IMG/VR virus record: IMGVR_UViG_3300021387_000025
Span: 1-64,000 of that record
Length of the DNA: 64,000 bases
Strand: one strand, 5' to 3'
Origin: a virus
Lineage: Duplodnaviria; Caudoviricetes
Part shown: one piece after another, positions 2,386 through 60,658 of the stretch
How positions within the stretch are numbered: the stretch's first letter is position 1
How the letters are laid out: each line of letters starts with the position of its first letter
Program-made: the position numbers and the translations under genes
Notes under the pieces: generated by a model
Told to the model about the DNA's origin: nothing
Seen by the model: only the letters and a program-made list of their open reading frames with translations
Database searches by the model: none

Positions 2386-3328
2386 TGTAATTATACCAGT
2401 ATATCATTCGCGTGAAACGTTACCAAATACTCTACTTTCATTATTAAATCAAACAACAAAAAATTTTTTTATTACGATAGTAAATGATTGTGATGGAGAA
2501 AATTATACAGATATAATAAATAAATTTACCAATGAGGGATTGCGCATTGTCTATCTGCCATTAGCAGAAAATGTTGGTCCAGGTTTAGCCCGACAAGCTG
2601 CAATGGATGCAGATAATACGTCTGAATTTTTTATGTTATGCGATTCAGATGACTTACTAATGCCGCAAGCAGTTGAATCATTATTAAGAAGCATCACTTT
2701 AAAAGAGCTAAACATCGTTGCTTCAAGTTTTTTACGACATGAAAAAGATCATAACTTGTTGCAAGACGTTACTGAAACAGCTATTACATGGTGTGCAGGT
2801 AAAATTTATCGAGCCGAATATCTTAAGAAAAATAATATACGTTTTCATCCCTATCTTAGATTAAATGAAGATTCATATTTTAATGTTGTTGCTTGGAATT
2901 CCACGCAAAAGCGCGGGCAATTAAATGAAGTCACAGTTTTAGTAATGGACAATACTAATTCATTAACTCGTAAAGAAGGACGTGAAAAATTTTTTATCAA
3001 AGGCTGGGAGCAATATATTTTATCTCAAGTTGACGGACTGCAAGAAATATATAAACAAACTCTCACGATGAATCCGTAGATCGCCGCAAGAACATTGGTA
3101 TATTTATATCACGAAACAATGATTGCTATGAGTCTAAATTTACCACTAAATCAATCAAAAATTTACTTAAAAAAATTAAATAAGCATTGGATGAATGAAT
3201 GTATGAACAAAGCAGAATTTTGGAGAGAAGTGGCTGCTAGTTGTCAGGGTGCAATTACATTTAATAACACAATAATTTTTCCAAAAATTAGCTTTGATGA
3301 ATGGTTAAAATGGGGTAAAGAAGAATGA
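2378..3328 (+). CDS. Family 2 glycosyltransferase (TAG=Gln at 3077-3079)
   Basis: VIIPVY, IVNDC, GPGLARQ, DSDD and NEDSYF GT-A motifs. Track ORFs 2378..3079 and 3095..3328 are in the same frame. Confidence 0.85.
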
Positions 3329-3861
3329 GTATTTTTATAGTAAATGGCGCGCCAGGTAGCGGTAAAACTACCTTTGAATATTTTGTAGATGAAGCAGCTT
3401 ACAGATATGGTTATTCTGTTTTTATTGATTCAACAATTAATTTTGTAAAGTAGATTGCGGCGATATGTGGCTGGAATGGAGATAAAACCCCTAAAAATCG
3501 AAAATTCTTGTCAGATTTAAAGGATTTATTAACTTCTTGGGATGATGTTCCAATTAAAAAAATTAAACAAAATTTAGAAAATTATAAATCTGAATTGAGA
3601 TTAAGTAATTTAGATTTCAATCATTACGGAATTATTTTTATAGACTCTAGAGAACCTCAAGAAATTAAACGATTATGCAAAGAATTAAATGCAAAATCAA
3701 TTTTAATTGATAGAAAAGATGTAGACAAAAATGCTGTCAATTCTAATCATGCGGATTCAGAAGTTTATAATTATGAATATGATATTGTTATTGATAATAA
3801 TGGAACATTATCTGATTTAAAGAAAAAAGCAATTACTTTTATAGAAAAAGACCTCGTATAA
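3325..3861 (+). CDS. Deoxynucleoside monophosphate kinase-like P-loop protein (TAG=Gln at 3451-3453)
   Basis: ATG 3325 overlaps the previous TGA. NGAPGSGKTT P-loop, GWNGDK..RKFL, IFIDSREP and IDNNG motifs. Confidence 0.85.
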
Positions 3862-3878
3862 AACGAGGTCTTCTTTTT
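3846..3878. terminator. Bidirectional intrinsic terminator
   Basis: AAAAGACCTCGT-ATAAA-ACGAGGTCTTCTTTT between convergent genes. Confidence 0.8.
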
Positions 3879-4314
3879 AATCTTCTTCTGCTAAATCTTG
3901 GTAAGAAATTGTATCAATTTCCCATTTACAGATCTCTTGATAAAGAAGCGTTGCATAACTATTACCTTTTAATTGTTTAACATAAATTTCATATGTCTTA
4001 TCTGCACTTTTTCTTTCATATAATGGAATTTTTTTCTAAGCTTGATATTTATAATAAATATTTTTTAAAGTGTTTCGGCATTGCTATCTTGATACCTCTT
4101 GAATAGCTTCAAAACCAGTGGCAAGTTTTTCAATATCAGCTTTAATAGCAGAAATATCCTCTGCCTAATGCTAATTTTCATCTTTTAAATCTTTGGTTTC
4201 TTTTGCAAATATACTTTTTATAGCTGCGCGGCCGCCTTTGGTGCAAAGTGTAATTAAAGAAATTGCAGAAAGCACAAGACCAATAATTGCAGCAATGTTT
4301 TTAATAGTTTCCAT
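3877..4314 (-). CDS. Putative holin-like membrane protein (4 TAG=Gln); absent from the ORF track
   Basis: METIKNIAAIIGLVLSAISLITLC transmembrane segment, then a coiled coil and a Y..LKGNSY motif like Gram-positive phage holin-type proteins. AAGGAGG SD; ends in TAA. Confidence 0.65.
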
Positions 4315-4345
4315 TAAGAGCCTCCTTATACCATTCCTCATAAAG

Positions 4346-4372
4346 AAGTAGAGAAAGCTCTCCTCTTATTTA
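4346..4372 (-). promoter_or_regulatory. Putative phage-specific (late) promoter TAAA-N17-CTACTT
   Basis: The same spacing recurs at 18507, 32206 and 50372. Lies about 32 nt upstream of the holin-like ATG. Confidence 0.6.
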
Positions 4373-4752
4373 AGTTTTTGATTCCTCCAAGCCTCGTCAT
4401 TATGAAATTTTGAACGAGCTAAAAATTTATCTTGAAACAAATCATCTAAAATTTGAATGTTTCCAATTTCCCAATATGGTATACAATAAATTTTTATATC
4501 ATTTGCAAGACAATAGGAGATTTTGCGTCTATCGCGCTCTTGTGCTTTGAGAAAATCAGAACGATTTGAATAGAATTGCTTTGTATATATATAATGCTGT
4601 GCGCCATTGACTTCTATAGCACACTTTTGAGTTGGAAGATAAAAATCAAATCTATATAAGCCATTATATAGATCTTTAAATTGTTTTTCCTATTCGAATT
4701 GTACGCCCGATTCAACAAGAATCGAGCGCACAACTTTTTCAAATGTACTCAT
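4366..4752 (-). CDS. DUF559/Vsr-like PD-(D/E)XK endonuclease (1 TAG=Gln)
   Basis: FE-Q-EKQF, YRFDFYLP, IEVNGAQHY, RDRRK..YC and IPYWE. The start overlaps the ligase stop. Confidence 0.8.
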
Positions 4753-5870
4753 CATTCAACTTGTTCTAAACCGCATTCCTCTGCTGTTTTATCACTCCTA
4801 ATTTGTTTTAAGCGTGGATGCCTAATTCCTGTAAATTTATTATTACCGTCTCGCATTAATTGCATTCCAGTAATTTCAGCCACTTTTCCTTTATAATTTT
4901 TCCAATTTTGAAGCATTTCTTCAGTTAATCCACTTAATGAACCAATAGGAACATATTTTTTATTATTTGAATTGTATAATCCAATAATAAAACTACCTGC
5001 CCATCCATGCCAATAAGGTTTAGTTACAGGTTCAATAGGTTCTCCATCACTATAATGTTTATAATAATCACCATTTAACTTTTCACCCGTCATAACATTT
5101 TCCCAATAGGGCCAAGTGGTGATTTCTTTTCCGCCATAAAGACGAGTGGGAGGATTAGCACCAAGAATAACAACGTCAATATTTTCTTGAAGCTCTTTTT
5201 TAACTTTAAATGTCTGGCGCGCAGGACGCTTACCAGGCTGATAGCATGTTCCTTTTTTAGTGATTACAATGCCTTCACCGCCTTCTGCGAGAATCGTCTG
5301 AAGCCGATTCCAAAGCTCAACTCCTTCGAAATATTCAGCCCACTCATGATAATTTTCGCCATAAGCCCGCCATCCGAGAATTAATTCTTCAACTCTATCT
5401 TCAATTGGCATCTTAAGATATGATTTTCCGTCATAAGCAAGAACATCAAATATATAATAATGAAGTTTTTCCCCGGCTTCTTGGCGCGCGATGGCTTTTT
5501 CTTTTAAGCACCCCATAATAGATGTTACATGATTAGAGCCTTCGTTATTTGGAAAATAGATTTCGCCAAGTAAACAAGTTCCATTTGGAAGATCATCAAA
5601 GAAAGACTGAAGCTGCGGAACCCACTCAATTTTGTTAAGATAATCGCCTGATACGCTTTTACTGCGCCCAAGTAATTCCATATTACCATCTTCATCTTTT
5701 ATAAATTTATAAAAAGCGCCATCCATCTTTCGCGCGCCAAGGTAGTCTCCAGAAAAAATAGCGTTGTGAACTTCTTTCTTTTTTCGATCTTCATCCCATG
5801 TCGAAGGCGGCGTCCAATACTTTTGTGCTGGAAGTTCGTGAAAATCAATATTATCAATATAACCCTTCAT
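4752..5870 (-). CDS. ATP-dependent DNA ligase
   Basis: RKMDG adenylation motif, LLGEIY, YIFDVL, EGIVI, KVK and IRHPR. SD before ATG 5870; no TAG. Confidence 0.9.
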   Translation of the reverse strand: MKGYIDNIDFHELPAQKYWTPPSTWDEDRKKKEVHNAIFSGDYLGARKMDGAFYKFIKDEDGNMELLGRSKSVSGDYLNKIEWVPQLQSFFDDLPNGTCLLGEIYFPNNEGSNHVTSIMGCLKEKAIARQEAGEKLHYYIFDVLAYDGKSYLKMPIEDRVEELILGWRAYGENYHEWAEYFEGVELWNRLQTILAEGGEGIVITKKGTCYQPGKRPARQTFKVKKELQENIDVVILGANPPTRLYGGKEITTWPYWENVMTGEKLNGDYYKHYSDGEPIEPVTKPYWHGWAGSFIIGLYNSNNKKYVPIGSLSGLTEEMLQNWKNYKGKVAEITGMQLMRDGNNKFTGIRHPRLKQIRSDKTAEECGLEQVE

Positions 5871-5898
5871 TATAATACTCCTTTCATTTTCTAAAATA

Positions 5899-5965
5899 AT
5901 TATACAATATTTTTTCAAAAAAATCAAATTTGAAACTTGAAAATTATTTGAAGTTTTGATATAAT
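5899..5965. promoter_or_regulatory. Back-to-back sigma-A-type promoters
   Basis: Minus strand TTGATT-N17-TATAAT (5899-5927); plus strand TTGAAA-N17-TATAAT (5937-5965). Confidence 0.75.
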
Positions 5966-5997: not shown

Positions 5998-6969
5998 ATG
6001 ATATATTTATGTATTTTATGTGCAGTTTTAATAGTTGCTTTAATAATTGTTATTAATGTTTATAATAAAAATAAAAAAATTAATTTTGAATAGTATAAAG
6101 AAAAATATGCAGAATAGTTAAAATAGTAGTATGAAAGTATTATTACAGCGACTCATCAGACTGATTCAGAGCTAAAAACTAAAAAAGAAAAACTTAATTC
6201 AATTGAGAAAGAAATAGAATCAAAAGCTAAATTTAACAAAACAGTTCATCAAATGCGTGAGCAAGAATTGGACCGTTTAATTGAAGAAGAAAAGGAGCAT
6301 AAACTTGCATTAGTAGAACTTGAAGTTTAGGACTGGGCGGCCTCTGCGCAAGAAGTCGCAAGAGATAATTATAATTAGCTTTTAATTGATTAGGAAAGAG
6401 AAATTCGTACAAAGCAAGAACAGGTTAAATATTTAATTACATAGCTGGCAGAATAGCAATCTAAAATAGAAGCAGTAAATAAAGAAATTCTTCGAAGGCG
6501 CGCCATAGAAGAAAAACATGAATTTTATTGTATTTAGATTAGTGATAGTGCTAAAAATGATATAGCCATTTTAAATGAAATTAGACCAAAATTGTCAAAT
6601 CTTGAAATTTTTAACAAATTTATATATGATAATTATATTGCTAAACCAACAAAAGAAATGATTTAGAGAGTGCTAGCCGGTCGCAATCCATCTGGCATTT
6701 ATAAAATCACAAATATTGATACACACGAGTCTTATATAGGTAAATCTGTTAAAATTTCTGACAGATGGATTAATCATGTTAAGGGCGCGGTTGGTCTTAG
6801 CGGAATTGCAGAATCACAATTTCAACGAGCTTTAAAGAAATATGGAGTTGATAAATTTACTTGGGAAGTCTTAGAAGAAGTAAATAAAGATGAATTATCA
6901 GCCAGGGAAAAATATTGGATTACCTTTTATCAGACAAAAGAATATGGATATAATCAAAGGGAGGGTTAA
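5998..6969 (+). CDS. Membrane-anchored coiled-coil protein with a C-terminal GIY-YIG nuclease domain (11 TAG=Gln)
   Basis: MIYLCILCAVLIVALIIVINVY transmembrane helix, about 190 aa of E/K/Q-rich helical sequence, then GIYKITN..SYIGKS..RW..H..REKYWI..GYN. In frame with track ORF 6670..6969. Confidence 0.85.
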
Positions 6970-7979
6970 TGAATCTTTCAAAACTACAAGAACAAATTAT
7001 AAATTCAAAATATGACAGAATAGTTGTACTTTCAAGCGCGGCCAGCGGTAAAACTCGTTTGATGACGGAAAAAGTACGCCAATTATTACGAAATGGAGTC
7101 GATCCAAAAGAAATAGCTGTTATAACCTTTACAAACATGGCGGCCGCTGAGTTAAAAGAACGACTGGGAGAAGACTATAAAAGTGGTTTATTTGTCGGAA
7201 CCATTCACGCACTTGCTAATTATTTTTTACTATCTGCGGGGATTAATACTGGAGCTGTCTTAGATAACGAAGATTTTGATAAATTATTTTTTATGGTAAA
7301 ACAAAATTCAGCTTGTGTTAAGCACTTAGAATGGATTTTACTGGATGAAGCACAAGATTCTGATGAAATGCAATTTGAATTTTTATTTAAAATGATTAAT
7401 CCAAAGCATTTTTTTCTATGTGGCGACACAAAACAATGTATTTATCAGTTTAAAGGATCGGAGCCAGAATTGTTATTAGATCTTACAGAACAAGAAGATG
7501 TATATACATATAATATGAACGAAAACTATCGCAATGGTTCTAAAATTCTATCTTTCGCGCGCAAATTGATCCAACCAACAGGACAATGGGATACGTCAAT
7601 CCCTATGAGAGAAAATGAGGGAGAAGTATTTGAGACAAAATTTAATCCAAAAGGTATTATATATGAGATCAAAAAAGATCCTCAATACAATAATTGGGCA
7701 ATTTTATGTCGAACCAATAAACAAATTTCTCAAATCAGTGAGGTTTTAAGAGGTGCTGGGCTTCCATTCGAAACCTTCCGTCAAGGGGATCTAACTAAAG
7801 ATGAATTAGTTACAAAATTAAAAGAAAACACAATCAAAGTTTTAACAGTACATAGCGCGAAAGGATTGGAATGGAACAATGTAATTGTTTATGGAATGAA
7901 ATATTACAGTCCAGAAGAACGAAATGTTTGCTATGTCGCAGCAACAAGAGCAAGAGATCTGTTAATTTGGATAAAATAA
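6969..7979 (+). CDS. Compact UvrD/Rep-family SF1 helicase
   Basis: AASGKT, ITFTNMAA, GTIHA, LDEAQD, GDTKQCIYQF, ENYR, TVHSAKGLEW and YVAATRAR motifs; no TAG. Confidence 0.92.
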   Translation: MNLSKLQEQIINSKYDRIVVLSSAASGKTRLMTEKVRQLLRNGVDPKEIAVITFTNMAAAELKERLGEDYKSGLFVGTIHALANYFLLSAGINTGAVLDNEDFDKLFFMVKQNSACVKHLEWILLDEAQDSDEMQFEFLFKMINPKHFFLCGDTKQCIYQFKGSEPELLLDLTEQEDVYTYNMNENYRNGSKILSFARKLIQPTGQWDTSIPMRENEGEVFETKFNPKGIIYEIKKDPQYNNWAILCRTNKQISQISEVLRGAGLPFETFRQGDLTKDELVTKLKENTIKVLTVHSAKGLEWNNVIVYGMKYYSPEERNVCYVAATRARDLLIWIK

Positions 7980-8952: not shown

Positions 8953-9942
8953 TTAATCTATATATTTGCTTGAACAGAATCCATAAGTAGAACCAAATAT
9001 TACATAATCCCAAATTCGTCCATCACTGGCAGGCTTCTAATCACAAATTTGAACAATCGCACCTTTTGGCATAACCGTAAGACCTTTATAGAAAGCTCCG
9101 CATCCTTTTCTAAGCCAAAGATCAGTGGTTACCTTTCCTGTTTTTTGAGGAGATTTACGAAGAACATATTGCTTTTCAATCCAGCCTATATGCACATTTG
9201 CAATTTTAATTTGCCATCTATCTTTTCCCTCTCCAATCACTTCAAAGAGATTGGTTAAACCTAGCGCTGGCCAAGCTGCTAATAATGTAGAACCATTTTG
9301 ATCAGCGTATACTGGAACTGTTGCTTTACCATAAACTTCTCCAACCCATCCATCAAATGGAACTGGTTGCGGATTTGGATTTAATTCTGCCCACAATTGA
9401 GTTGTTGGTCCATAAGGAGAATAAGCACCTGTATAGTCTACAACACGACTTTCTCCAGATCTTTCCCAAGCACGATTTGAAATTGGCTCAAAGAGAATTC
9501 CTGCGCGACCTTCACGAATCGCTTTATCAGTTGATTCCCAACCGATGTGCATCGCAAGTCCGTTACCTACATCAAGGCCTATATGGCGGCCGGCACCACC
9601 CCAAGTAGTAAATAAAATTGAACCTGTTGGACCTGCTGCGAATGTATTATATTTTGAGCAATTATTAATTTGTCCGACTGAGTATTGATGATCTCCAGTA
9701 CAAACCCAACCAACAAAACCAGAGCAATCATCAGCCATGTGTCCAAGAGAATTCCGAACGATCTGGTTTTTCTCTTCAGCAGTGTAGCGCGCGAAGTAAG
9801 CCGGCTCTGCAGCAAAATAATTTCTAATTTGTGCTTCAGAAGTTAATCTAACATTCTTTGCACCATATAAATAAACATAATCATGCGATCTATAAGCCGC
9901 AATTGCTCTGTCAACAACCGTTGACCATTTTGTTTTTGCCAT
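8953..9942 (-). CDS. Endolysin: NlpC/P60-like peptidoglycan hydrolase with SH3b-like domains (TAG=Gln at 9037-9039)
   Basis: YLYGA, DCSGFV and HIGL catalytic motifs. Readthrough completes the last SH3b-like domain (WDYVIFGSTYGFCSSKYID). Confidence 0.8.
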
Positions 9943-21568: not shown

Positions 21569-21585
21569 AAAAATCATAGAAAAAC

Positions 21586-21614: not shown

Positions 21615-21638
21615 TTAAAATAAAGAAAGGAGAAATAA

Positions 21639-41114: not shown

Positions 41115-41122
41115 GAGGTAAT

Positions 41123-41818: not shown

Positions 41819-41843
41819 AAAATTAAAAAATTTTTGATATAAT
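41815..41843 (+). promoter_or_regulatory. Sigma-A-type promoter with extended -10
   Basis: TTGAAA-N17-TATAAT. Confidence 0.75.
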
Positions 41844-41872
41844 TATAATATAAAATTAAGAGAGGTGCAGAA

Positions 41873-43712: not shown

Positions 43713-43931
43713 ATGGCAGAGATACAAAAACCTACAACTATGTTGATGGATGAATTTAAAGAGAAATTTGTTGAACTTTTGAATAACTCACAACTTCCTG
43801 CTTGGGTTTTGATTTATTTAATTGAACCTTATGTTTAGGAACTCAAACAGGTTGAACAACGAGTAAAAATTGAAGAACGTGAAGAATACGAAAAAACTTT
43901 GAAAGAAGCAGAAGAAAAGACGGAGAATTAA
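43713..43931 (+). CDS. Small hypothetical coiled-coil protein (1 TAG=Gln)
   Basis: GGAG SD; 72 aa; ends in TAA within the terminator loop. Confidence 0.65.
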
Positions 43932-43947
43932 ATTCTCCGTCTTTTTT
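43916..43947. terminator. Bidirectional intrinsic terminator at the junction of the convergent replication and structural blocks
   Basis: AAAAGACGGAGAATT-A-AATTCTCCGTCTTTT. Confidence 0.85.
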
Positions 43948-49285: not shown

Positions 49286-49296
49286 CTAAACCTCCA

Positions 49297-50343
49297 TTAA
49301 TAATACAGATAATCATATTCTATTTTACAATTGTCCACTACTGAAGAGCGAGCAACATTAATTTTTATATAATCACAATAGTCAACTAATTCTTCCGCAG
49401 TAAGTGGGTCTGGATCTTGGGTTATAGGAATTTTAAAAAATGTACCACTTGATATATATTTATTATAAAGTGTGCCAGTTTTATTATTATTCGCATCAAT
49501 ACCATAAACTAAATTAGTTGCTGTATCTACAACAAGCCGAGTATCTCCACTGTCCATAATCAAACCAGTAAAATTTAATTGTGCCAAAGATACATCTCCA
49601 ACAGAAGAGGTGGCTGGTTTATTTTCACCTTTGACACGATGCACCATTTCCAAACTTAAATCTGAAGGAACAACATCATGGTCAATAATAACTTTAAAAT
49701 CTGTTGGAACGTCTCCTGGATTATAGACAAATCGCGCAGCTACATTCCCATTATCTAAACTACTAATATTTTTTAATTCATTCATCTACGCTTGACTAAG
49801 AAGATGAACAGAATCATACCATTCATCAATATTTGGATAATTAATTTCATCTTCTTCAAGCAAATCATAAATTTTAAAGTTATCTCTCGCATAAGGTACA
49901 TAGCTTATAAACTAGAAAGTAATTTCACCTTTATGCACGCGAAGTTTTTCAAAGAAAGTGTCTCCACCTGCCTGAACTGGTTTTTCTCTAAAGGTTAAAT
50001 ATTTAATTTGCGGCGGCGCCTGTAATTTAACCCTATATTTTTTATAAGGGACCTCATCAAGCACAAGCCAATCTTCTGCTTTGCCATTAAAAATCTATCT
50101 AATCTGACGTAACTAAGTTTCACTCAAATCATCAAAAGCACATTGAATAGTAAAAGTTCTCTAACTATAAAAAGAGTCCCAATAATAGGTACCATCACCG
50201 CCAGGTATTTTAGAAGTTGTATCGGTAAAATTAGGGATAGAAACATCATTATATCTATCGCCATCACTTACCCTATACAAACCTAAATCGCGACTATGAT
50301 GTTCCCCAAATTGAAACCCAAGATAATCTCCATAGTATTTCAT
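49297..50343 (-). CDS. Distal tail (Dit-like) protein (TAG=Gln)
   Basis: GFQFGEHHSRDLG, IPGGDG.YY, LVLDEVPYK.Y, PYA and YNPGDV motifs. Directly follows the tape measure gene. Confidence 0.8.
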
Positions 50344-50371
50344 TTTATTTCTCCTTTTAATTCCTAAAATT

Positions 50372-50398
50372 AAGTAGAAAAAACTAAAAACTTTTTTA
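50372..50398 (-). promoter_or_regulatory. Putative phage-specific (late) promoter TAAA-N17-CTACTT
   Basis: About 29 nt upstream of the Dit ATG. Confidence 0.6.
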
Positions 50399-50406
50399 TG
50401 ATTCTG

Positions 50407-50426
50407 GGGCCTCATAAGAGGCCCCT
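50407..50426. terminator. Hairpin after the tape measure gene
   Basis: GGGGCCTC-ATAA-GAGGCCCC; the U-tract on the minus strand is weak. Confidence 0.5.
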
Positions 50427-50431
50427 TTAAA

Positions 50432-53400
50432 TTATCTCATCAAACTAATTGCGTTAACATTTCGATACTCCGCGGCATCGTAAATTTGTTTTTTAATACG
50501 CTCTGCAAGTTGATCAACATCATAATCAGAATCAATTTCTGCCTGAATATCAATATCAAAATAATTATCTCCACCGGTCTACGCCGCAGTCTTTGTACTA
50601 GAAGTATTCTTTAAGATGGACGCAAGAATGTCTTTTAATGCAATAAAGTTCTATGTGTCAGCCGCATTCAACACCATCTCTGGACGTGATTTTGTACCAT
50701 CTAACCATGCGGGACCAGTAAAGTCTGCTAAACCACCTTGCTTATATGCTTGGAATGAATACAATGGAGTACCGTTTTGATGAACAGCAGTATAACCAAT
50801 TTGTCCATTTGGTAATTTAATTTTATACCAGCCATAATCACCATAACCAATAACATCAAAAGATTGTCCTTTTTCAGTATGACCAATTACGTTATTACCA
50901 TAGGCAACTGAACTTCTGACATTAACCCAACCATAAGTATTAGTAATACGTCCTAATTTAGCAGGTTCACTATTTTTAGGAGTCTACTGTGGAGTTGTAG
51001 CAGCAGGAGTAGAAGTAGTGGCTTTTGCTGGAGTAGTGGCAGAAGTAGTACTTGTTGTCGTCGTTGCAGGACGTGCTGCCTATGTAGTATTGGTAGCTTT
51101 TAACGAATAAGCCTATTTATTATAATCCCAATACAAATCTCCATCAGTATAAGTTTTCTTAGTCTTACTGTCATACCATGTTCCAGTTTTAGCATCATAC
51201 GTCAATGTTGTACCATCGTTTAAAGTCAATTTACCAGAACTAGATTTTGCTTCTGCCAATGTATAGTTTTGTAAGCCTTGAATTGCAATTGCAATTTCCT
51301 TAGTAATATCTTCGGTCCACTAGAAAGACTTTAATTTACTAAGCGCCTGGAAATTAGCATCTTCTTTTAATAACTAATAAAGATCACTTTCAACTTTAAT
51401 CTTTCCATTGGCATCAAATGCGCCCGATAGCTTAGATTCAACATCTGTCCAGAACATACCATAACGCTTTTCATGCTCCAACAAATCTTTTAATAGATCA
51501 ATCTGCGCTTGACGCTATTGTTCCGCGCGAGTTGCTTCCTCTTGCATTTCTTGGATGGTTTGATCAATAATCATATCTTGATAAGATTGCTGGTCATTGC
51601 TAATTTCTTTTTGAAGCTTAAGAATCTCTAAATCATTCGCGCCAGAGGTGTCGCGCTGAAGATATGCAAGCCGCATTTCTTTATCACGAATATCCTGTTC
51701 CTTTTCAGTATTTTCACGAGCTTGACGTTCTTTAGCAACCTCATCTTGAATTGCCGTTATCGTTTTGTTGGCCGCATCAGTAATTGAAGAATTAATATTT
51801 TCCAATGCTTCAATTTCTGCTTCACGGCGCGCTACCAATGCGTCATAAACTTTTTGTTCAAAATTGAGATATTCTTCTTTACCGCGATCTTGAATTTCAA
51901 TTAACTGATCATTAATTTCTTCAATAGCATCTTCTGTATCTACAATTTCTCCTTGAAGTTCTTCAAGACGCGACACATATTGTTCAACTGCTTTGCCAAG
52001 GTTTTCATCTACGATTTGATCAATTGCGTCATAATCAATTTGAACTGTATTAGTGCTTAAATCATAACTTGCATACCGAGTCGCGCCAACTGCGCCGAGA
52101 GTAGTGATGTTACCTTCACTATCTTCATATTTTTCATTTGCGACGTTTTGAACTTGGCGTTGACGACCAGCCAACATTTGTTTTTGAAGAGCAAGTTGCT
52201 GTTTTAAAGATGCTGTCTCGCGAAGAGTATTTTCTACGAGATCGCTAGCTGTCTTGGTATGATCTTTGAGCATATCTTCATAACGATGTTCAAGACGTTC
52301 GCGCTCACGAAGAGCAGTATTGATTTTTTGTTGAAGGTTATAAAGTTCATCATAGGGATTGAGCCATTGATTTGATTTTTCTTCTTTTCCAGAACCTCCC
52401 GAACCAGAACCGGATTTAGAACCACCGGAGCCTCTAGATCCATAATTCTATAATCCAGAAAAATCAGGTTTAGGATAATCTTTAGTAATAGGCTCCCACG
52501 TCATTTCATAAATAGGCACTCCTATTGTTCCACTTGTAATCTATTGATTTATATTATTCCATGCCTCTCCATAATTTAACTAATTAATCTTACTTGCTTT
52601 TGGAACCACAATCTATTGCACACCAGCCTATTTGTATGATTGTTTCAACCCCATATTTGCAGAGATTGCTTTACCCGCTTCACCAGAAGCATTAATCATT
52701 TTATTTAAGCCGTCTCTAAATTGATCAAGTTCCCACATAGCTTCTACAGTCAAATCTGGAAATTCCTCTAAAGTCTGCTAAAACCACTCTCTAAAAGTAA
52801 GGGTTTCTTCAGTAGCATTAGTTGGATCCAAAACAAAATCAATAATTGCCTATTTTCTTGTAATTTCTATCAATTCTGAAATTCTTGAATATGCAGCTTC
52901 TTGTTCTTGTACATTATCACTAACTAACTAAGTTAATAAGCCTTCAATTTCTGTTCCTTGGAAAAATTCATCATTTAGTTCACCAACAACTCCAAAAATT
53001 TCTTGTAAGGTACCTTTAAGATTTTCAAACTATTTAAACTACTCTGAACTTAATTCAAAACTTACCCCTTTTCCAAGCGGACCATTCTCCCCAAATAAAT
53101 TACTCCAATCTTTTGAGGTATCAATAAGTTTTTTCATGTTAGTGTTAACAATGACATATTGTGCAGCAATTTCATGAGCTGAATCAATCTCATTTTCTTG
53201 TACCTTACCAAGTCGAATTAATTCATCAGCATAAGCTTTTACTTCATTTGGGTCTAATCCTTTTTTAGACACCTCAGAATAAACTTTAGTCAATCTGCCA
53301 ACCTAAGAAGCTGCTAAACTATCAAAATCTCCTCCAATGAAATTTTCCAATACATCTTGTGGAATAACACTAGAAGCTTTGGAAAGAATTGCATTTTTGT

Positions 53401-56400
53401 ATTTTTCAGCTCCAGTATTTGCAAAATTGCTTACAAGCTGATCCAGAGTCTATTCTGCTAATAATCCAATTTCATCTAAATCATCGTATTTTTCTAATTC
53501 CTTCAAGTACTAAGGATTTCGCGCTGCCATGTCTTGAATAGCAGTTACCCACTCCTCAGCAGTCGCATCTGATAATTTAGCAATAAATTGAGGTAGCATT
53601 TCATTAGATAGTCCATCTATACCAAGTAAACTTAAATCAATGTCCTAATCAGTAGCTCGCTAAATAATTTCATTTAAATATTCTTTATCAGTTAAAGTGT
53701 CTTGGTAAGTACCCTTTATCTAACCATACTCATCATATATGTTTCTTGTAATGGCCTTACCGTCTAAGCCAGCTGTTAATCCAAAAATCGCAGCCTTAGT
53801 TTCAGACTATTCACGACCCCTACCTAACAAATCATTTGTTTGATTATTAATAGCAGTAACAATATTATCTAATTTATCACCAATATAAAGATATGAACCA
53901 TCTTCACGATATGTAAATTCAGATACATTAACTCCAGCTTCAACTAATTTATCATAATCATCTTTTGAGAAATTACGATTCTATTCACCATTACGAATAT
54001 TATTTGCTAATTTAACTAAATCTGGTAACTATTCAGAAAGTTTTTCAACATCAATTGTTGCTAATGAGTGTGCACGATTTTTAATTAATTCAATAAAGCT
54101 ATCAAAATCTTGTTCTGCTCCCGATAAATCAAAACCTAAACTTATTAATGTTTCTTTAAAACTATCAACATCTTCTTCAGAATTTAAGGCTACAGTAGAA
54201 AATGCTCCTACTACTTTTTCTAATTTTTCAACATCTTCAGTTACATCTGTGCCTATTAAGTTTCCTAACCTTTCAATAATTTCCACGCCAAAGGCACCAT
54301 CATCAGCAGGAACATACTACTGTAATTGTTTAGCAAAAGAATCGATTGTACTTGAAGCAAACTAATCAGTAGCATCTTTAAAATTCTAATTATTTAAACT
54401 ATTATAAGCATTATCAATTGAAGTCTGTGCAACAATAATACTTGTAGCAAATTCTTTTGCCCATTCTCCATATTTTTCTTGCCCACCTAATGCCGCCTAT
54501 TCAGCAGGACTTAAACTATCCCAATATGCCTTAATCGCTCGCGCTAACGGAGAATTTGCATCCTAAAGATCTTGTATATTAGCATCTTTTAAGCCTTGTA
54601 TAATGTTATCCTCAGTAAGGCTATTAAGTTTTTCATAAATGCTATCTAAATCAGACTATTTTAAGTTTTCCCCGGTTTTTCCTTGAAACGCTTTGGCAAC
54701 GGTACCTTCTAATCCAGCTATAGTCTTTGTGTATGACTCCAATTCTTTCGCAGCTTTATTAGCAGTGCGCCACGATGCAAAAGCATTTTTTACATCATCG
54801 TCAGCCAAACCTTTTGTTTTTCCGTTTAAATCAAATTTACCATTATAAGTATTGTAACTAGTAATACCATAAGTCTCTCTTAAAAAATTTTTATAATCTT
54901 CTTCAACGTTAGCGTCTCCACTCTATTTCTATCGCTGCAGGCCATTCTTTAAATTTTCACGTTCTTCCTTGTACATATCAGAAAAACGAGAACCATTGTC
55001 AAGAAAATTCTAAGCATATTCTTGTGCATCCTCGTCTAAGTCAGTTAATGATAATGCTAACCCTCCTAGAGCAGTCCCAAAGCTATCTAATTGAGCGTTA
55101 ATTGAAATTAAACTTTCTCCTTGTTTAGCTATCTCATCAAAATCTAAAATGCCACCATAAAGCTTCTCTTCAATACCAAAATTATCCTTAACATACTGAT
55201 AAAGCTATTCATTATTACGAATTAGACCTTCTGCAACGGCAACAGCAATTGTATCAGTTTGTTCATCAGTTAATGCTGATTCAAGATGTGTAATTCCATC
55301 CTGATCACGAGTTTCTACACTAAGATCCATGACGGATCGAGGCTCTATTAAAAATGCCTATTCTCTTAAATTATTTATATTTGCGCCAATCTAACTAATA
55401 TTTCCTAAATTTTCGCGGGATTGATAATCTGTCATAATAGCATCGTAATTAGTAATTCTTAAAACGCCATTATCATTTTCAATCTATAATTCTTTATATT
55501 GATTTAATAACTCTAATACTTCTTGATTATTAGCACGAACTGCTTCAGTCCATTCTTTAGTACCTTCAATTAATTCATCTATTTTACTTGCAGATTCAGC
55601 TAAATCTTCATAGCTTTCTCTTAAAGTATTGACAGCTTCAGTCGCTTGATTAGCTGCCTCGCTTGCCGATTCTAAAGTGGCTTTAGTTCGTTCTGCGGCC
55701 TCGGTAGGAGTTTCAATTACTTCAGTCAATATCGTAATTAATGCAATTATTGCACTAATAATTGCCGCAATCCAACCAATAATCGGAATATTCCAAATTG
55801 TTTCAGAAACTTCAATTCCAAATATTTTAAATGCATTAGCTACCATCGGTAAAATTGAGCCAACACTCATTAATGCAACACCTATCGTTTTTAAGACTTT
55901 TGTTGTACCGTTAGACTACCCAGAAACTTTTTCAATTATAGTTCCTAAACCTAGTAGTGTCGATCCAATTCCCATCATAGCTGTCTAAGTAATATTTAAA
56001 GCTTGTTGCTAGTTTTTAAATGTCACTCCTAATTTATCAGCCTATTCTCCAGTAATTGACATCTAAATTCCTGCTTCTTTAGCTTCTTGAGTATATTTGG
56101 CTAAACTTTCAGCATCAGTAATAGCTGATTTTTCTAACTTCTTAAAAATTTTTAATTGCTATTCATTTAATATATTTTCATCAACCGACTATAAAGCAGT
56201 ATCAAAAATATTTTGTATGTTGTTTTGATTTAAATTAAAATCTATATCACTTAAATCAACTGTTTTTAATCCAAGCTAGCCAGCACTTAATTTAGATGAA
56301 AATTTCTTTGCTAACCAATCTTTGATATTTCCAAATTTATCTTTAATTCCTTCTGCTAAATTTTCTCCAACGTTTTTACCAATTTTAGTAATAGCAGACT

Positions 56401-58855
56401 TCTCACCTCTAAAAGCCATTCCCAGTTGAGCAATGTAACCTTTAATACCACTTTCTGGATTACCAAAAAAACTATTAAATAATGAACGCCCTAATTTTAA
56501 TCCACCAACAGAAATGCCAATTGCGGCGATCGACTTCAGTAATCCATTACCACCACTAATAGTATCAATAACTTTATTAAGAGCATTAATCAAACCAGTT
56601 AACATATCAACCGCACCCTTAATAATATCACTATTAGTAATAGACATCAAAAATTGATCCCAAGCATTTTTTAACTTAGTCAATTTTGTTTCTAAAGATT
56701 CAAGTGTTTTGTTATATTGCTCAGTAGCCGCACCATTAGCATCTTGCGCAGCAGCAGTCAACTCCTATGTACGTCTATAGTCTGACATAAGAGCAATAAA
56801 ACGAGACTGCTGACGAGAACCGGCCGCCATAGTCGCGATATATCTTTGTTGAACGATATCTAAGTCATCCCACTTAGAAGCCAATTCCATAAAAATTTCG
56901 TCAAGACCTTTTTGCCCAACCAGGAACTCATTCAAATTAATTCCAGCTGTCCTTAAAGCCTTAGAAACTTTATTAACATCGATTTCTTCGCCTTCTTCAT
57001 CAGTTCCAAGTAATTCGCCCTTTGAATATAAGTCTTTAACTTCAGAAAAACGTGCAACAACAGTCTTTAATGCAGTACCAGCAGTTTCTGCAGATTCACG
57101 AGTGGTTTCAATAATTTGTGCCAAAAACGCCGCGGTATTTTCAAATTGCATATTTGCAGAATTAGCAAGAGAAGCAACCTTAGTCATAGCTACTGAAATT
57201 TCATCAACATCAGAAGCAGAAATCGCAGCCAGTTTAGAATAAACATCTGCAATATTGTCAGCATTAGCCTCGTTAATTTCCATGTTGAAACCACGAAGAG
57301 CATTGGTTACACGGTCGGTTGCCTCTGCCGCATCAAGTCCAGCAATACGCGCCATTCTTAATGTAGCATTTGTAACTGCCATAACTTCGTTAGTTTTTAA
57401 ACCTTGCTGATAATAAAGGGTAGACGCTTCATAAACATCGTGGATAGATACACCAAGCTCGTTTGCACGTTTTGTGTACTCAGGTAACTTAGTCCACATG
57501 TCTCCAACGGAAAATTCAGTAACAACAGCGGTTTCAGTCATGACTTTATCAAGATCTTTAACCGTATCCATGGCAGAGCGAATAGCTCGTTTAAATAATC
57601 TTACAGCATTTCCAATAGAAAAGAATTGTAATATATTATTACGCATCTGATCTAATTGTTTAGCCGATTCAGACATTTCATGAATAGAACCGCTAGCTTG
57701 ATCAAATCCCCTAACAGCTTCTTCGCTTGCTGAACGAGAGGCAACCAAAGCTTCATTAATTTTTTCAATTGTTTCTGTGGCTCCGGCGCCGCCCTTAGCT
57801 CTAATCTCTTCTATCTTTTCTTCTAATATTTCAAAAGAAGTTATACTCTCAGGATCAATACCAAATTTATCCCAAGGTACATCAGTCATCTTCAATAATG
57901 AATCTTTGACCTTTTCAAAGGCGTCGCTTTTTACTTGGGCTAAATTATCATTTAATTCTTTAAGTCGAGTTTTTGCAGATTCAGACTACTTTCCTAAATC
58001 TTCAACCGCTCTTGAAGCTTTATCTAAATTTGAGCTATCTGATCTAGCATTAGATAATTCAGTTTTTAATTCTTCCTATTTTTTTCGCGCTTGAGCTAAT
58101 TCTTCATAAGCCTATGTAAGATCCTACACTTCTTTAACTTCTGGCAGTGTCCCATTTCTCTAAGCTTTATCATACGCTGCTTTCCAGCCAGATTTAGTTC
58201 CAGACTTATTTTTATACTCAGCTTTAAATTCTTCTTCAGTCTAAACTCTAGTTTTTACTTCTTTTTCAGCTAATTCAATAATTCTTTCTCTTTCTTGAAC
58301 AAGCTTTTTTGTTTCATTAATTTCCTGTTGAATTTCTTCAACAGCACGATTTTTTGAAACTCGATCATTATATAAGCTCTATAATTCGGTTTGTTTTCTT
58401 AAATCTTTTTCTAATTTCTCTGCCGCCGCAGCCTACTCACGAACAGCTTTTGCAGCTTTACCAATATTACTTTCAGAATTATTTAACTCACGATTATAAT
58501 CTTTAATAATCTTTGTTAATTTATCTAAACTTTTTTGATCTGCATCAAGTAATTTATTCTGAACTTTACTTGACGAAATACGATTGTTTAATTGCTGCCA
58601 CAAACTTCCAATTCGATCAAAACTTTTTGCAACCGACTTTTCATCAACAATACTTAATTCTTTATTTCCTGTTTTATTCTAAATGTTTTTAATCTCTGAT
58701 TCTAAATTTGCAAAAAGATTTTTAAAATCGTCTTTCATGCCATCTGTCAAACTTAGTTTTGACAATTCAATTCTGACTTTATTAATTTCATTCTAAAAGC
58801 CAGTAATATTAGCACCAATATCAATAGTGGCTTTTATCGTAGTGTCCCTTGGCAT
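50432..58855 (-). CDS. Tail tape measure protein of about 2807 aa (many TAG=Gln)
   Basis: Six track ORFs share one frame. TMP core (LDKVMTETAVV, ETAGTALKT, AGSRQQSRF), a hydrophobic stretch, a C-terminal SH3b-like domain and YKQGGLADFTGPAWLDG..PEMVL. Confidence 0.9.
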
Positions 58856-58869: not shown

Positions 58870-58903
58870 AAAAAAATCGGCATTAACTTTCATTAATGCC
58901 GAA
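58870..58903 (-). terminator. Intrinsic terminator
   Basis: Minus-strand TCGGCATTAA-TGAAAG-TTAATGCCGA-TTTTTTT. Confidence 0.75.
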
Positions 58904-58910
58904 ATTCCTA

Positions 58911-59693
58911 TTATAAGTCGCTTTCTATATCATCGCTTAAAAAGTACATTTCACTTACATAAGCATCCGTTCTCGACCCCACTGGCATGCCCACACCTTT
59001 AAACACTCCAACTAATGGAGAAGCTTGTGAACCCAGCTTTATAGATAAATCCGACATCAATTTAAGTTTTGGAATTTTTATAATTCCAGTTACGACCTTA
59101 CCCGTTTCATCATCTTTTATACGGGTGCGGCCCTCTAAACTAACAAATCCATTTAAAAGCCGTTGTCCAATGCGGCATACCTTTGCTCCATTCGTATAAT
59201 TATAAGTATATGTAACAATTAGCTCTTGATAAGGTTTCTATGCAGTAATTATATCCTAATTTATATAATAATAAATTGGTAAGCCAGTTTCTTTATCATA
59301 TACAAATAAGTCACCAGATGGAATATTTTTTAATTTTGCATGTCTATCTTCATCACTTTCTACTTCTTCATAGGCGCTAATCTAAATTGGAGTTTCATCT
59401 TCTTCAATCAGCATTTTTGAATTATACATTAAACTAAATTGATCTTTTGAAAAAACTCCCTATGAAAAAGTAAGATTTAGTTCTCTTGTTGTTTCCCAAA
59501 AAACGTGCGCTCGATTATCAAAACCACCTCGCGCGGCCACATAATCTTTTACTTCATTTAATCCTGCAATTTGAATTTTATCAAATCGCGCCAATACTTC
59601 TCCTTCCTAAATAATCCTCTTAGGGGTCTCTATATCATAAGTAGATTTTATGAACACGTTCTCGAAATCTTTGAAGCTAAACTGTTCACTCAT
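58911..59693 (-). CDS. Divergent paralogue of the major tail protein (TAG=Gln); absent from the ORF track
   Basis: AARGGFDN..VFWETTRELNLTFS-Q-GVFS aligns with DARGGKGN..VTWDYGKEITVSIEDALFS, and IPKLKL aligns with IPKAKM. AAGGAG SD. Confidence 0.75.
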
Positions 59694-59708
59694 TTCCTCT
59701 CCTTAAAC

Positions 59709-59738
59709 AAAAAGCGGAGGAAGCAAGCCTCCTCCGCC
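59709..59738 (-). terminator. Intrinsic terminator after the major tail gene
   Basis: Minus-strand GCGGAGGAGGC-TT-GCTTCCTCCGC-TTTTT. Confidence 0.8.
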
Positions 59739-59758
59739 TAATATGCAATATTTACTTA

Positions 59759-60658
59759 TTATGCTTCAAGGTCATACTGCACAAGTTTCATCATATCGCC
59801 ATCTTCTGGACGAAGAACTGTAAGGTTCATATTGAATACAGAAGGATCGCCTTCAGCTTCAAGAGTAATTGTCTGTTCAGCAGTCATCTTAGCCTTCGGG
59901 ATGATGAACTGGAAGAACTGATCCTTACCAGTAACATCTGAACGAGCATATGTATCGCCCTGAATATAGTATGTGCCTGGGAACGAATCACCAGAAATGG
60001 TAATTGTCTTTGTAGTAGCCTTTACCCAGTAAGTAAACATAAACTTGTGTCCAGCATAAGCGCCAGTGCCGTCTTGCTGACCTGTGCTATACAGAGCCTT
60101 TAAGTCACTAGCTGTAAAAGCTTCATCGAGCACTGTTCCATCTTCGTCATATAACTTAGATGCCGCGCCAGTAATACTGAAACTAATTTGATTATCAAGC
60201 GCAACCATACCAACAGGAGCGACTGCATCAGGACCAATATAAAGCTTTGCACGCTTACTACCTTCATTAACGTCATAAATATCTGCCGTTACATAACTTA
60301 CTGCAGCTTTGGTGTAGCCTTCAGCGTTCTGGCCCATACGAATTACAGCTGTCTTCATAATATAACCGCCAGCGCCCTGAGCAACAGTGCCATCGCCAAG
60401 CATGATAGACATGGACTTCGGGCTAAACAGCGCATCTTCAATACTAACTGTGATTTCCTTACCGTAATCCCAAGTTACAAGTTTCGGATTACCTTTACCA
60501 CCGCGGGCGTCAACCTGCTCAGCAGTTTGCTCGATGGTAGAAACCTTTAAGGTATCAAGGTAAAGTACGGGTTTGCCAGGAGTACCATCTGGATTGATCT
60601 CATACATGGTTACGTCAGCAACTTCCTTAATACCATAACGATCAAGAATACTAGCCAT
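59759..60658 (-). CDS. Major tail tube protein
   Basis: Located between the neck genes and the TMP, with high-expression-type codon usage and its own terminator. ARGGKGN and EGDPSVF motifs; no TAG. Confidence 0.8.
   Translation of the reverse strand: MASILDRYGIKEVADVTMYEINPDGTPGKPVLYLDTLKVSTIEQTAEQVDARGGKGNPKLVTWDYGKEITVSIEDALFSPKSMSIMLGDGTVAQGAGGYIMKTAVIRMGQNAEGYTKAAVSYVTADIYDVNEGSKRAKLYIGPDAVAPVGMVALDNQISFSITGAASKLYDEDGTVLDEAFTASDLKALYSTGQQDGTGAYAGHKFMFTYWVKATTKTITISGDSFPGTYYIQGDTYARSDVTGKDQFFQFIIPKAKMTAEQTITLEAEGDPSVFNMNLTVLRPEDGDMMKLVQYDLEA

What the first reader, a model, noticed from the sequence alone, without database searches (positions are those of the whole stretch)
3325..60658. 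Three-tier amber gating: TAG-free replisome, single-TAG dNTP supply, TAG-rich late and toxic genes
Seen in sequence: there are no TAGs in DnaE (1330 aa), GyrA, GyrB, DnaB, primase, the SSB-like protein, the AAA protein, ligase, the UvrD-like helicase, RNase H, ThyX or dUTPase, together more than 5,500 codons with many CAA/CAG. There is exactly one TAG in NrdD (codon 37), NrdG, the dNMP kinase, RecJ, the glycosyltransferase and the lysin. There are 4-11 in the holin, RuvC, the membrane GIY-YIG protein and the 32264 endonuclease, and many in most minor tail proteins. Inference: TAG-free genes are translated by the unmodified host immediately, while the others need a later phage-driven code switch, which gives a translational timer. 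Lysis and structural gene gating has been proposed before (Borges et al. 2022). The single-codon locks on nucleotide-supply enzymes inside an otherwise TAG-free region are the less familiar part.
Basis: partly seen in the sequence, partly recalled or inferred. Interest (0 to 1): 0.8.

Follow-up and report, generated by a model that had tools for sequence, protein, structure and literature searches.

The report
Two-class amber codon use in phage
This 120-kb rumen/gut phage reads the stop codon TAG as glutamine, keeps TAG out of its replication genes and its most abundant virion proteins and uses it freely elsewhere; this is a known pattern, and the single TAGs in nucleotide-supply genes look like tolerated strays rather than conserved locks.

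Summary
The counts are right. TAG never ends a gene. The listed replication genes hold no in-frame TAG over about 5,600 codons, though TAG is common in their other two frames. NrdD, NrdG, RecJ, the kinase, the glycosyltransferase and the putative lysin hold one each. RuvC, the homing endonucleases and the tail genes hold many. TAG means glutamine, and the genome carries one tRNA(CUA).

Three tiers are not supported in this genome. A two-class binomial mixture (about 3% and 38% of Gln codons) fits best. One low rate predicts 40/9/2 genes with 0/1/2+ TAGs, exactly as observed.

The single TAG sites are not conserved: NrdD site 0 of 80 relatives, NrdG 0 of 79, RecJ 1 of 35. Of TAG-recoded relatives, 26 of 32 NrdD and 29 of 31 NrdG genes are TAG-free.

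Pooled over relatives, the supply operon is leakier than the core replisome (about 2% against 0.35%). That is a graded tolerance, not a lock.

The major capsid, scaffold-like and major tail proteins are late genes yet TAG-free in nearly all recoded relatives, so timing alone does not explain TAG avoidance.

The timer model and endonuclease gating are already published (Borges et al.). This scan has noted amber-gated nucleases on other phage DNA before.

The parts
1939..2385 (+). RNase H, 0 TAG
   Evidence: Pfam RNase_H E=6e-27; codon counts
2378..3328 (+). Family-2 glycosyltransferase, 1 TAG (codon 234, 3077-3079)
   Evidence: Pfam Glycos_transf_2 E=7e-21
3325..3861 (+). Putative dNMP kinase, 1 TAG (codon 43, 3451-3453). 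It has only 3 Gln sites, so its class cannot be assigned.
   Evidence: phrog_139 E=8e-12; weak Pfam DNMK hit; posterior for the low class 0.16
3877..4341 (-).
4366..4755 (-). Homing-endonuclease-like fragment, 1 TAG here; the family is TAG-rich in relatives (18 TAG against 22 CAA/CAG)
   Evidence: phrog_559/9084
4752..5927 (-). ATP-dependent DNA ligase, 0 TAG; no TAG against 52 CAA/CAG in recoded relatives
5998..6969 (+). GIY-YIG nuclease with an N-terminal TM segment, 11 TAG; all 7 recoded orthologs carry TAG
6969..7979 (+). UvrD-like helicase, 0 TAG here but TAG-rich in relatives (20 TAG against 43 CAA/CAG), so its class is not fixed
8953..9942 (-). Putative endolysin (weak NlpC/P60 and SH3_3 matches), 1 TAG at codon 302
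18630..19280 (+). GIY-YIG endonuclease ahead of gyrB, 2 TAG
19255..24198 (+). GyrB (19255-21114) and GyrA (21862-24198), 0 TAG; no TAG against 133 and 182 CAA/CAG in recoded relatives
24689..29833 (+).
30432..32189 (+). RecJ-like exonuclease, 1 TAG (codon 243, 31158-31160). The site is CAA/CAG in 29 of 35 relatives. The family is bimodal: 13 of 23 TAG-free, others with up to 16 TAG.
32189..33160 (+). HNH homing endonuclease between recJ and dnaE, 6 TAG
   Evidence: phrog_374/559
33201..37193 (+). DnaE-type polymerase, 1330 aa, 0 TAG among 44 Gln codons; 3 TAG against 1342 CAA/CAG in recoded relatives
37193..38347 (+). Unknown 384-aa protein, 7 TAG
38428..42978 (+). Nucleotide-supply operon:
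- thioredoxin-like gene (38428-38736, 0 TAG)
- NrdD (38723-40645, TAG at 38831)
- NrdG (40635-41114, TAG at 40818)
- unknown phrog_6721 protein (41123-41818, 0 TAG; not confirmed as ThyX)
- dUTPase (42037-42978, 0 TAG)
42991..43710 (+). RuvC-like resolvase, 10 TAG; every recoded ortholog carries 1-9 TAG
43913..43947 (.). Two-way terminator-like hairpin between the rightward early block and the leftward tail genes
44393..58855 (-). Tail genes: 1634-aa tail protein (37 TAG), Dit (49297-50415, 5 TAG), 2807-aa tape-measure-size protein (59 TAG)
58911..59693 (-). Distant paralogue of the tail tube protein, 5 TAG; 51 TAG against 50 CAA/CAG in relatives
59759..60658 (-). Major tail (tube) protein: a late gene with 0 TAG and a CAG preference (9 CAG, 3 CAA); 11 of 12 recoded orthologs are TAG-free
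   Evidence: phrog_2729; annotated major tail / tail tube homologs
63884..64000 (-). 3' end of the major capsid gene (whole gene G000:C1:63884-64954 = L081:3884-4954): 0 TAG, 13 CAG and 2 CAA; no TAG against 247 CAA/CAG in 20 recoded relatives

Best explanation
The phage reads TAG as glutamine through its own tRNA(CUA). Its genes fall into two classes.

In one class TAG behaves as a near-neutral synonym of CAA/CAG and makes up about 38% of Gln codons. This class holds most tail, packaging and connector genes, RuvC and the homing endonucleases.

In the other class TAG is purged to about 3% or less. This class holds two kinds of gene. The first kind must be made before or without the suppressor: replisome, gyrase, ligase and nucleotide supply. 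The second kind is made in very large amounts: major capsid, scaffold-like and major tail proteins.

The single TAGs in nrdD, nrdG, recJ and the kinase are short-lived strays inside the purged class. In this genome they do make full-length protein depend on the suppressor tRNA. That is an effect of the codon, not a conserved, selected lock.

Purging is graded. It is strictest for the core replisome (about 0.35% of Gln sites), about six times weaker for the supply operon (about 2%), and weakest near the 5' ends of genes.

Shown here: the codon counts, the meaning of TAG, conservation of class, and turnover of sites. Inferred: the selective causes (timing, amount, position).
For: - TAG means Gln. 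1408 of 3643 residues aligned to this genome's TAGs are Q, and the substitution-profile likelihood favours Q by about 3000 log units. NrdD codon 37 is Q in 77 of 80 relatives.
- A tRNA(CUA) is present at 119240-119327. No release factor or GlnRS-type synthetase was found.
- Two classes fit best: BIC is 496 for K=1, 362 for K=2 and 371 for K=3.
- In the low class, 40/9/2 genes have 0/1/2+ TAGs, against 40.1/9.1/1.8 expected at a single rate of 2.7%.
- Avoidance is frame-specific: 0 against 99 and 89 TAGs in the three frames.
- Class is conserved: rho is 0.67 with the closest relative. Only 25 of 150 TAG sites are shared with it, and none of the singletons in nrdD, nrdG, recJ or the 62907 gene.
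- In 67 TAG-recoded loci the TAG to CAA/CAG counts are GyrA/GyrB 0:315, MCP 0:247, scaffold-like 0:110, MTP 1:90, DnaE 3:1342, NrdD 7:601 (26 of 32 TAG-free) and NrdG 2:182 (29 of 31 TAG-free). TAG fractions are 0.47 for RuvC, 0.32 for terminase and 0.26 for portal.
- Stray single TAGs also occur in DnaE, DnaB, primase and AAA_24 of relatives.
- Graded leak: the supply operon has at least one TAG in 17 of 36 loci, against 5 of 18 for DnaB/primase/DnaE, although it has about half as many Gln sites. Counting events per Gln site gives p = 0.007.
- Amount axis: the tail-tube paralogue pair sits in one operon, and one copy is TAG-free while the other is TAG-rich, here and in relatives. TAG fraction falls as the CAG share rises (rho -0.51).
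- The +4 base after in-frame TAG resembles that after CAA/CAG and differs from that after true TAA stops.
Against: - No expression data exist, so 'early', 'late' and 'abundant' are inferred from homology and gene order.
- The supply genes carry more TAG than the replisome in three data sets: this genome (p = 0.008), relatives (p = 0.008), and phAss-1, where nrdG and thyX each have one 5'-proximal TAG while DnaE, GyrA, GyrB, ligase and AAA have none. A weak third level therefore cannot be dismissed.
- Stray TAGs in NrdD cluster in the first 50 codons in six lineages. A regulatory gate would also predict this.
- Relatives are metagenomic contigs and are not independent, so pooled p-values are inflated.
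- Class assignment uses the same counts that it then tests.
Confidence: 0.7

Rival explanations
1. Adaptive single-codon locks. One TAG, usually near the 5' end, is selected in nucleotide-supply genes to delay or throttle them until the suppressor tRNA is charged. The site is free to move, so only its presence is selected.
For: - The supply operon carries TAG more often than the replisome here, in relatives and in phAss-1.
- NrdD has six independent TAG gains within its first 50 codons: 7 TAG to 88 Gln codons there against 1 to 536 elsewhere, p = 1e-5.
- In phAss-1, nrdG has a TAG at codon 39 and thyX at codon 22, both inside the real coding sequence, and two tRNA-Sup genes lie directly upstream of nrdD.
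- Other reports of this scan describe conserved 5' TAGs in resolvase genes of other recoded phages (not checked by me).
Against: - Presence is not conserved. 26 of 32 NrdD, 29 of 31 NrdG and 14 of 19 dUTPase orthologs in recoded relatives have no TAG, and 19 of 36 loci have none in the whole operon. By contrast every RuvC ortholog and all 7 orthologs of the 5998 GIY-YIG endonuclease carry TAG.
- None of this genome's sites is shared even with a relative at 93% NrdD identity.
- A single low rate reproduces the number of singletons.
- Replisome genes of relatives carry the same kind of stray TAG.
Confidence: 0.12
2. No selection on timing at all. TAG simply accumulates in fast-evolving or AT-rich genes since a recent change of code, and conserved genes have not yet acquired it.
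For: - TAG fraction correlates weakly with GC (rho -0.29).
- A preprint on infant gut phages reports that genes with in-frame TAG mutate more, and suggests fast evolution predicts recoding (10.1101/2023.08.07.552389).
- TAG sites turn over quickly.
Against: - Protein identity to the closest relative does not predict TAG fraction (rho -0.04).
- Terminase (91% identical to the closest relative) is TAG-rich, while primase (69%), GyrB (55%) and dUTPase (63%) are TAG-free.
- GC explains only 9.5% of the deviance.
- The same genes stay TAG-free across relatives down to about 60% identity, and partly in phAss-1.
Confidence: 0.07
3. Mosaic origin. The TAG-free genes (replication module, capsid, tail tube) were recently imported from standard-code phages and have not yet acquired TAG.
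For: - Capsid and tail-tube genes have higher GC (0.44-0.45) than the genome (0.36).
- Relatives with no sign of TAG recoding around nrdD exist, at up to 88% NrdD identity.
Against: - The capsid gene is TAG-free in all 20 recoded relatives, which span 62-97% identity, and also in phAss-1 at about 33-36% identity. This is long-term maintenance, not a recent import.
- TAG-free and TAG-rich genes alternate within single operons (59759 against 58911; dnaE against 32189 and 37193).
Confidence: 0.04

Closest known systems
Stop-codon recoding as a translational timer of late and lytic phage genes (Borges et al., bioRxiv 10.1101/2021.08.26.457843; published 2022)
   Same: - TAG is read as Gln through a phage suppressor tRNA.
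- Replication genes are compatible with the standard code.
- Structural and lysis-type genes and a homing endonuclease set among early genes are recoded.
- Close relatives differ in code.
   Different: - No code-change module (release factor or synthetase) was found here.
- The putative endolysin is TAG-poor.
- The tail tube and capsid genes are TAG-free here, whereas a tail tube family was preferentially recoded in their crAss-like set.
- The paper describes no graded leak and no 5' skew of stray TAGs.
phAss-1 / proposed Phassvirus group of TAG-recoded gut siphophages (Babkin et al. 2023, PMC10607447; OQ749652.1)
   Same: - 120-136 kb genomes with a DnaE polymerase and a large tRNA array that includes tRNA-Sup(CTA).
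- The capsid protein is homologous (33% by tblastn).
- TerL and the tape measure carry TAG, while MCP and DnaE do not.
   Different: - It is a distant genus, with 30-45% identity for shared proteins.
- NrdD and NrdG are barely alignable.
- RuvC and portal are TAG-free and RecJ is TAG-rich in phAss-1.
- It has three suppressor tRNAs, two of them directly upstream of nrdD.
Translational delay of phage homing endonucleases (T4 I-TevI, made only from late transcripts because early transcripts hide the ribosome site; from my own knowledge, not checked here)
   Same: Nuclease genes embedded among early genes are kept silent until late by a block on translation.
   Different: Here the block would be in-frame TAG codons that need a suppressor tRNA, not RNA structure.

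Membership tests
TAG-to-Gln (code 15) recoded phage | In-frame TAG inside conserved genes, and TAG never used as a stop | tested here: met
   323 in-frame TAGs; all stops are TAA or TGA
TAG-to-Gln (code 15) recoded phage | TAG aligns with glutamine in homologs | tested here: met
   Q is the best candidate by about 3000 log-likelihood units; conserved-Q columns in NrdD, RuvC and the 37193 protein
TAG-to-Gln (code 15) recoded phage | Phage-encoded suppressor tRNA with anticodon CUA | tested here: met
   ARAGORN finds tRNA(cta) at 119240-119327, 88 nt, with a long variable arm
Borges-type translational timer | Early and replication genes free of the recoded codon; late and lytic genes rich in it | tested here: met
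   Two-class mixture, conserved in relatives. Exception: capsid, scaffold-like and tail tube genes are late but TAG-free.
Borges-type translational timer | TAG-containing proteins appear only after the suppressor tRNA is expressed | not testable with these tools
   Needs time-course proteomics or Ribo-seq in a cultured host; no host is known
Borges-type translational timer | Code-change module (release factor and/or aaRS beside the suppressor tRNA; seen in some clades only) | tested here: not met
   No RF-1 domain and no tRNA-synt_1c domain in the complete genome
Conserved single-codon amber gate | At least one TAG kept in the gene in most recoded relatives | tested here: not met
   Orthologs with a TAG: NrdD 6 of 32, NrdG 2 of 31, dUTPase 5 of 19. 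RuvC: 20 of 20.
Conserved single-codon amber gate | Position of the TAG conserved | tested here: not met
   NrdD site 0 of 80, NrdG site 0 of 79, RecJ site 1 of 35; none shared with the closest relative
Conserved single-codon amber gate | TAG placed near the 5' end | tested here: inconclusive
   Met for NrdD across lineages and for phAss-1 nrdG and thyX. Not met for this genome's RecJ, glycosyltransferase or lysin. Relaxed selection near the 5' end predicts the same skew.
phAss-1-like phage group | Shared hallmark proteins (MCP, TerL, DnaE, tape measure) and gene content | tested here: met
   23 proteins match at 21-46% identity, including MCP, TerL, portal, DnaE and GyrA/B. No tree was built, so membership of the published clade is not shown.

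The most novel reading that the evidence does not exclude
In-frame TAG carries a real cost per codon in this phage group, probably through competition with host release factor 1. That cost shapes codon choice along three axes, not only timing.
- When the protein is needed: replisome genes are purged more strictly than dNTP-supply genes.
- How much is made: capsid, scaffold-like and tail tube genes are TAG-free, while their low-copy paralogue and neighbours are TAG-rich.
- Where in the gene the codon lies: in purged genes, stray TAGs survive almost only near the 5' end, with six independent gains in the first 50 codons of nrdD.

A stronger version is that the recurrent 5' TAG in nrdD is a selected attenuator.
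Probability: 0.35. Interest if true: 0.55.

Novelty: new member of a known kind. Interest (0 to 1): 0.3.

Why it matters
The finding mostly re-derives a published model on a new phage, from a large uncultured rumen/gut group distantly related to phAss-1. Its value is as a well-replicated test case. Hundreds of related contigs, recoded and apparently not, allow selected gates (RuvC, homing endonucleases: always TAG-bearing) to be told apart from tolerated strays (nrdD, nrdG: mostly TAG-free).

It also shows that 'TAG-free' cannot be read as 'early', because the most abundant virion proteins are TAG-free too. This matters for anyone inferring phage expression timing from codon maps.

If the graded, position-dependent cost holds in other groups, it would give a way to measure how efficient natural amber suppression is during infection.

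Tried and rejected
- A single-sequence AlphaFold model of the capsid candidate was useless (pLDDT 34), and PDB sequence searches found nothing. The capsid call rests instead on gene order, the Atlas YonB/major-capsid cluster and homology to the phAss-1 gene region.
- The sigma-70 and terminator scans were at chance level and could not define transcription units.
Two of the matches abut start codons, so I did not use it.
- My ORF-coverage test flags some relatives as TGA-recoded, but it also flags this genome's own 80-100 kb region of small genes. I treat that class as unverified.
- No suppressor tRNA lies near nrdD, the capsid gene or gyrA in the relatives' loci.
- The base after TAG gave no signal that separates the singletons.
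- Because the tRNA has a long variable arm, I considered that TAG might encode Ser, Leu or Tyr. The alignments reject this.

Full report
**What the DNA is.** The window is the first 64 kb of a complete 119,955-bp virus record with direct terminal repeats, 36% GC. It encodes a DnaE-type polymerase, gyrase, DnaB, primase, RecJ, ligase, NrdD/NrdG and dUTPase. It also encodes a siphovirus-type virion module:
- terminase, portal and a scaffold-like protein;
- a capsid protein of the YonB family;
- connectors and a tail tube protein;
- a 2807-aa tape-measure-size protein, Dit and a 1634-aa tail protein.

Twenty-nine tRNA genes lie at 104-119 kb, among them one tRNA(CUA). The nearest cultured phages are SPbeta-like (DnaE about 36%). 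The nearest described recoded phage is phAss-1 (capsid 33%). IMG/VR holds several hundred related contigs.

**Check of the observation.** Using ORFs bounded by TAA/TGA, every figure in the finding was reproduced.
- TAG never terminates a gene.
- The twelve named 'TAG-free' genes total about 5,640 codons and 187 CAA/CAG with no TAG.
- In a similar set (those twelve plus the major tail gene), TAG appears 99 and 89 times in the two other frames, so the avoidance is specific to the reading frame.
- Variation among genes in TAG/(TAG+CAA+CAG) is extreme (G = 344, 99 df, p = 1e-28).

Three labels did not hold up.
- The 41123 protein has no Thy1 match, and the genome has no Thy1 domain.
- The 'holin' is only a small protein with one TM-like segment.
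- The 'lysin' rests on weak NlpC/P60 and SH3 matches.

**What TAG means.** The tRNA(CUA) has a long variable arm, so I tested alternatives to Gln. In alignments to 240 related loci, 1408 of 3643 residues opposite this genome's TAGs are Q, followed by E, K and R. A substitution-profile likelihood favours Q over every other residue by about 3000 log units. NrdD codon 37 is CAA/CAG in 77 of 80 relatives. TAG is glutamine. No release factor or GlnRS-type enzyme is encoded.

**Two tiers or three, within this genome.**
- A binomial mixture over 100 genes prefers two classes with TAG shares of 0.03 and 0.38 (BIC 362). One class gives BIC 496 and three give 371.
- The extra class splits the TAG-rich group. 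It does not separate 'zero' from 'one'.
- In the low class, 40, 9 and 2 genes have 0, 1 and 2 or more TAGs. A single rate of 2.7% predicts 40.1, 9.1 and 1.8.
- NrdG (6 Gln sites) and the kinase (3 Gln sites) are too small to classify.
- GC content explains 9.5% of the deviance.

I fetched 240 loci around nrdD, the capsid gene and gyrA. Sixty-seven show TAG recoding.
- Site conservation fails. The NrdD site is TAG in 0 of 80 relatives, the NrdG site in 0 of 79 and the RecJ site in 1 of 35.
- The closest near-complete relative (NrdD 93%, capsid 96% identical) shares 25 of this genome's 150 TAGs. It shares none of the singletons in nrdD, nrdG, recJ or the 62907 gene.
- Presence also fails. Among recoded relatives 26 of 32 NrdD, 29 of 31 NrdG and 14 of 19 dUTPase genes have no TAG. 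All 20 RuvC orthologs and all 7 orthologs of the 5998 nuclease carry TAG.
- Stray single TAGs also occur in DnaE, DnaB, primase and AAA_24 of relatives.
- Class itself is conserved (rho 0.67 between this genome and its closest relative). It is unrelated to protein divergence (rho -0.04).
- Some families switch class. The UvrD-like helicase is TAG-rich in relatives. RecJ is bimodal. In phAss-1, RuvC and portal are TAG-free and RecJ has six TAGs.

**What survives of the middle tier.**
- Pooled over recoded relatives, the supply genes carry TAG at 16:953 (TAG to CAA/CAG), against 14:2244 for replisome genes without the helicase (p = 0.008).
- Counting distinct alignment columns as events gives 14 against 11 (p = 0.007). 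Per ortholog the difference is not significant (16% against 12%, p = 0.39).
- Per locus, 17 of 36 have at least one TAG somewhere in the operon, against 5 of 18 for DnaB/primase/DnaE. The operon has about half as many Gln sites.
- phAss-1, whose NrdD and NrdG are barely alignable with these, has one TAG in nrdG (codon 39, just after the CxxxCxxC motif) and one in thyX (codon 22).
- phAss-1 has no TAG in DnaE, GyrA, GyrB, ligase or AAA. It has two suppressor tRNAs directly upstream of nrdD.

So the supply operon is purged about 20-fold relative to the free class, and the core replisome about 100-fold. This is a gradient of tolerance. Half of the relatives have no TAG in the operon at all.

**TAG-free late genes.**
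- The major tail protein (59759-60658) has no TAG, and 11 of 12 recoded orthologs are TAG-free.
- The capsid gene has no TAG against 247 CAA/CAG in 20 recoded relatives.
- The scaffold-like gene has none against 110.
- Their operon neighbours, a distant paralogue of the tail tube protein (58911-59693, 5 TAG), terminase and portal are all TAG-rich.
- The TAG-free late genes prefer CAG and have higher GC. Across genes, TAG share falls as CAG share rises (rho -0.51).
- The phAss-1 paper implies the same for MCP and DnaE against TerL and the tape measure, and the phAss-1 sequence confirms it.

A pure timer does not predict this. A cost per TAG that matters most for proteins made in hundreds of copies does. 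That reading is an inference.

**Position effect.**
- In TAG-poor families, 10 of 29 independent stray TAGs fall in the first tenth of the family's Gln sites (p = 3e-4). The 444 events in TAG-rich families show at most a slight excess there (14% in the first tenth; KS p = 0.15).
- NrdD drives much of the signal. Six lineages gained a TAG within codons 13-50, a conserved and truly coding stretch, against one gain elsewhere. The counts are 7 TAG to 88 Gln codons against 1 to 536, p = 1e-5.
- A few events at codons 3-9 of other genes may lie upstream of the true start codon.
- Both a regulatory gate and weaker selection against short abortive products predict this skew, so I cannot separate them.

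**Comparison with what is known.** Borges et al. already describe standard-code replication genes, recoded structural and lysis genes, a recoded homing endonuclease inside an early gene, and the timer model. A later preprint raises the evolutionary-rate confound. That confound does not explain the pattern here. Other reports of this scan describe conserved 5' TAGs in resolvase and nuclease genes of other recoded phages. I did not check them, but the RuvC result here agrees with them.

**Verdict.** The first and third tiers are a known phenomenon in a new phage. The second tier, read as 'locks', is not supported. Three modest, untested additions remain: graded purging, TAG-free abundant virion proteins, and the 5' skew of stray TAGs.

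**Limits.**
- Genes were called as longest ORFs.
- Orthologs were mapped by BLAST segments.
- The contigs are related to one another, so pooled p-values overstate significance.
- There are no expression data.

Noticed in passing
G000:C1:119240-119327 (L083:19240-19327), minus strand: The only tRNA(CUA) is 88 nt long with a long variable arm and G73, although TAG is decoded as glutamine. Another report of this scan covers it.
   Followed up: partly
window 38723-38872 (NrdD codons 1-50) and loci L001, L026, L064, L068, L069, L073: Six independent lineages carry a TAG within the first 50 codons of nrdD, and only one carries a TAG elsewhere in the 640-codon gene. Stray TAGs in DnaE lie at codons 3, 54 and 158 of 1330.
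   Followed up: partly
L245:9684-12610 (phAss-1, OQ749652.1 59684-62610): In phAss-1 two tRNA-Sup(CTA) genes sit directly upstream of nrdD on the same strand. nrdG has a TAG at codon 39 and thyX at codon 22, and the GenBank coding sequences of both are truncated because the record is annotated in the standard code.
   Followed up: partly
window 58911-60658, minus strand: Two distant paralogues of the tail tube family lie side by side. The upstream copy is TAG-free and CAG-rich and the downstream copy has 5 TAGs. The contrast is kept in relatives (1 TAG to 90 CAA/CAG against 51 to 50).
   Followed up: yes
window 6969-7979 and 30432-32189: The UvrD-like helicase is TAG-free here but TAG-rich in relatives. 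RecJ ranges from 0 to 16 TAGs among relatives. A gene family can therefore switch class.
   Followed up: partly
No Thy1 domain was found anywhere in the genome.
   Followed up: yes
loci L002, L008, L014-L016 and others; L005, L044, L051-L059: Relatives with up to 88% NrdD identity show no sign of TAG recoding around nrdD. Some loci look TGA-recoded by ORF coverage, but the same test misfires on this genome's own 80-100 kb region, so that class is unverified.
   Followed up: partly
window 43913-43947: A strong two-way terminator-like hairpin (14-16 pairs) lies where the rightward replication/nucleotide block meets the leftward tail genes.
   Followed up: no
window 8953-9942: The putative endolysin is TAG-poor (1 TAG in 12 Gln codons, near the 3' end), unlike the strongly recoded lysis enzymes reported for crAss-like phages. 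A second wall-degrading candidate with an SLT domain at G000:C1:114991-115833 has 7 TAGs.
   Followed up: no
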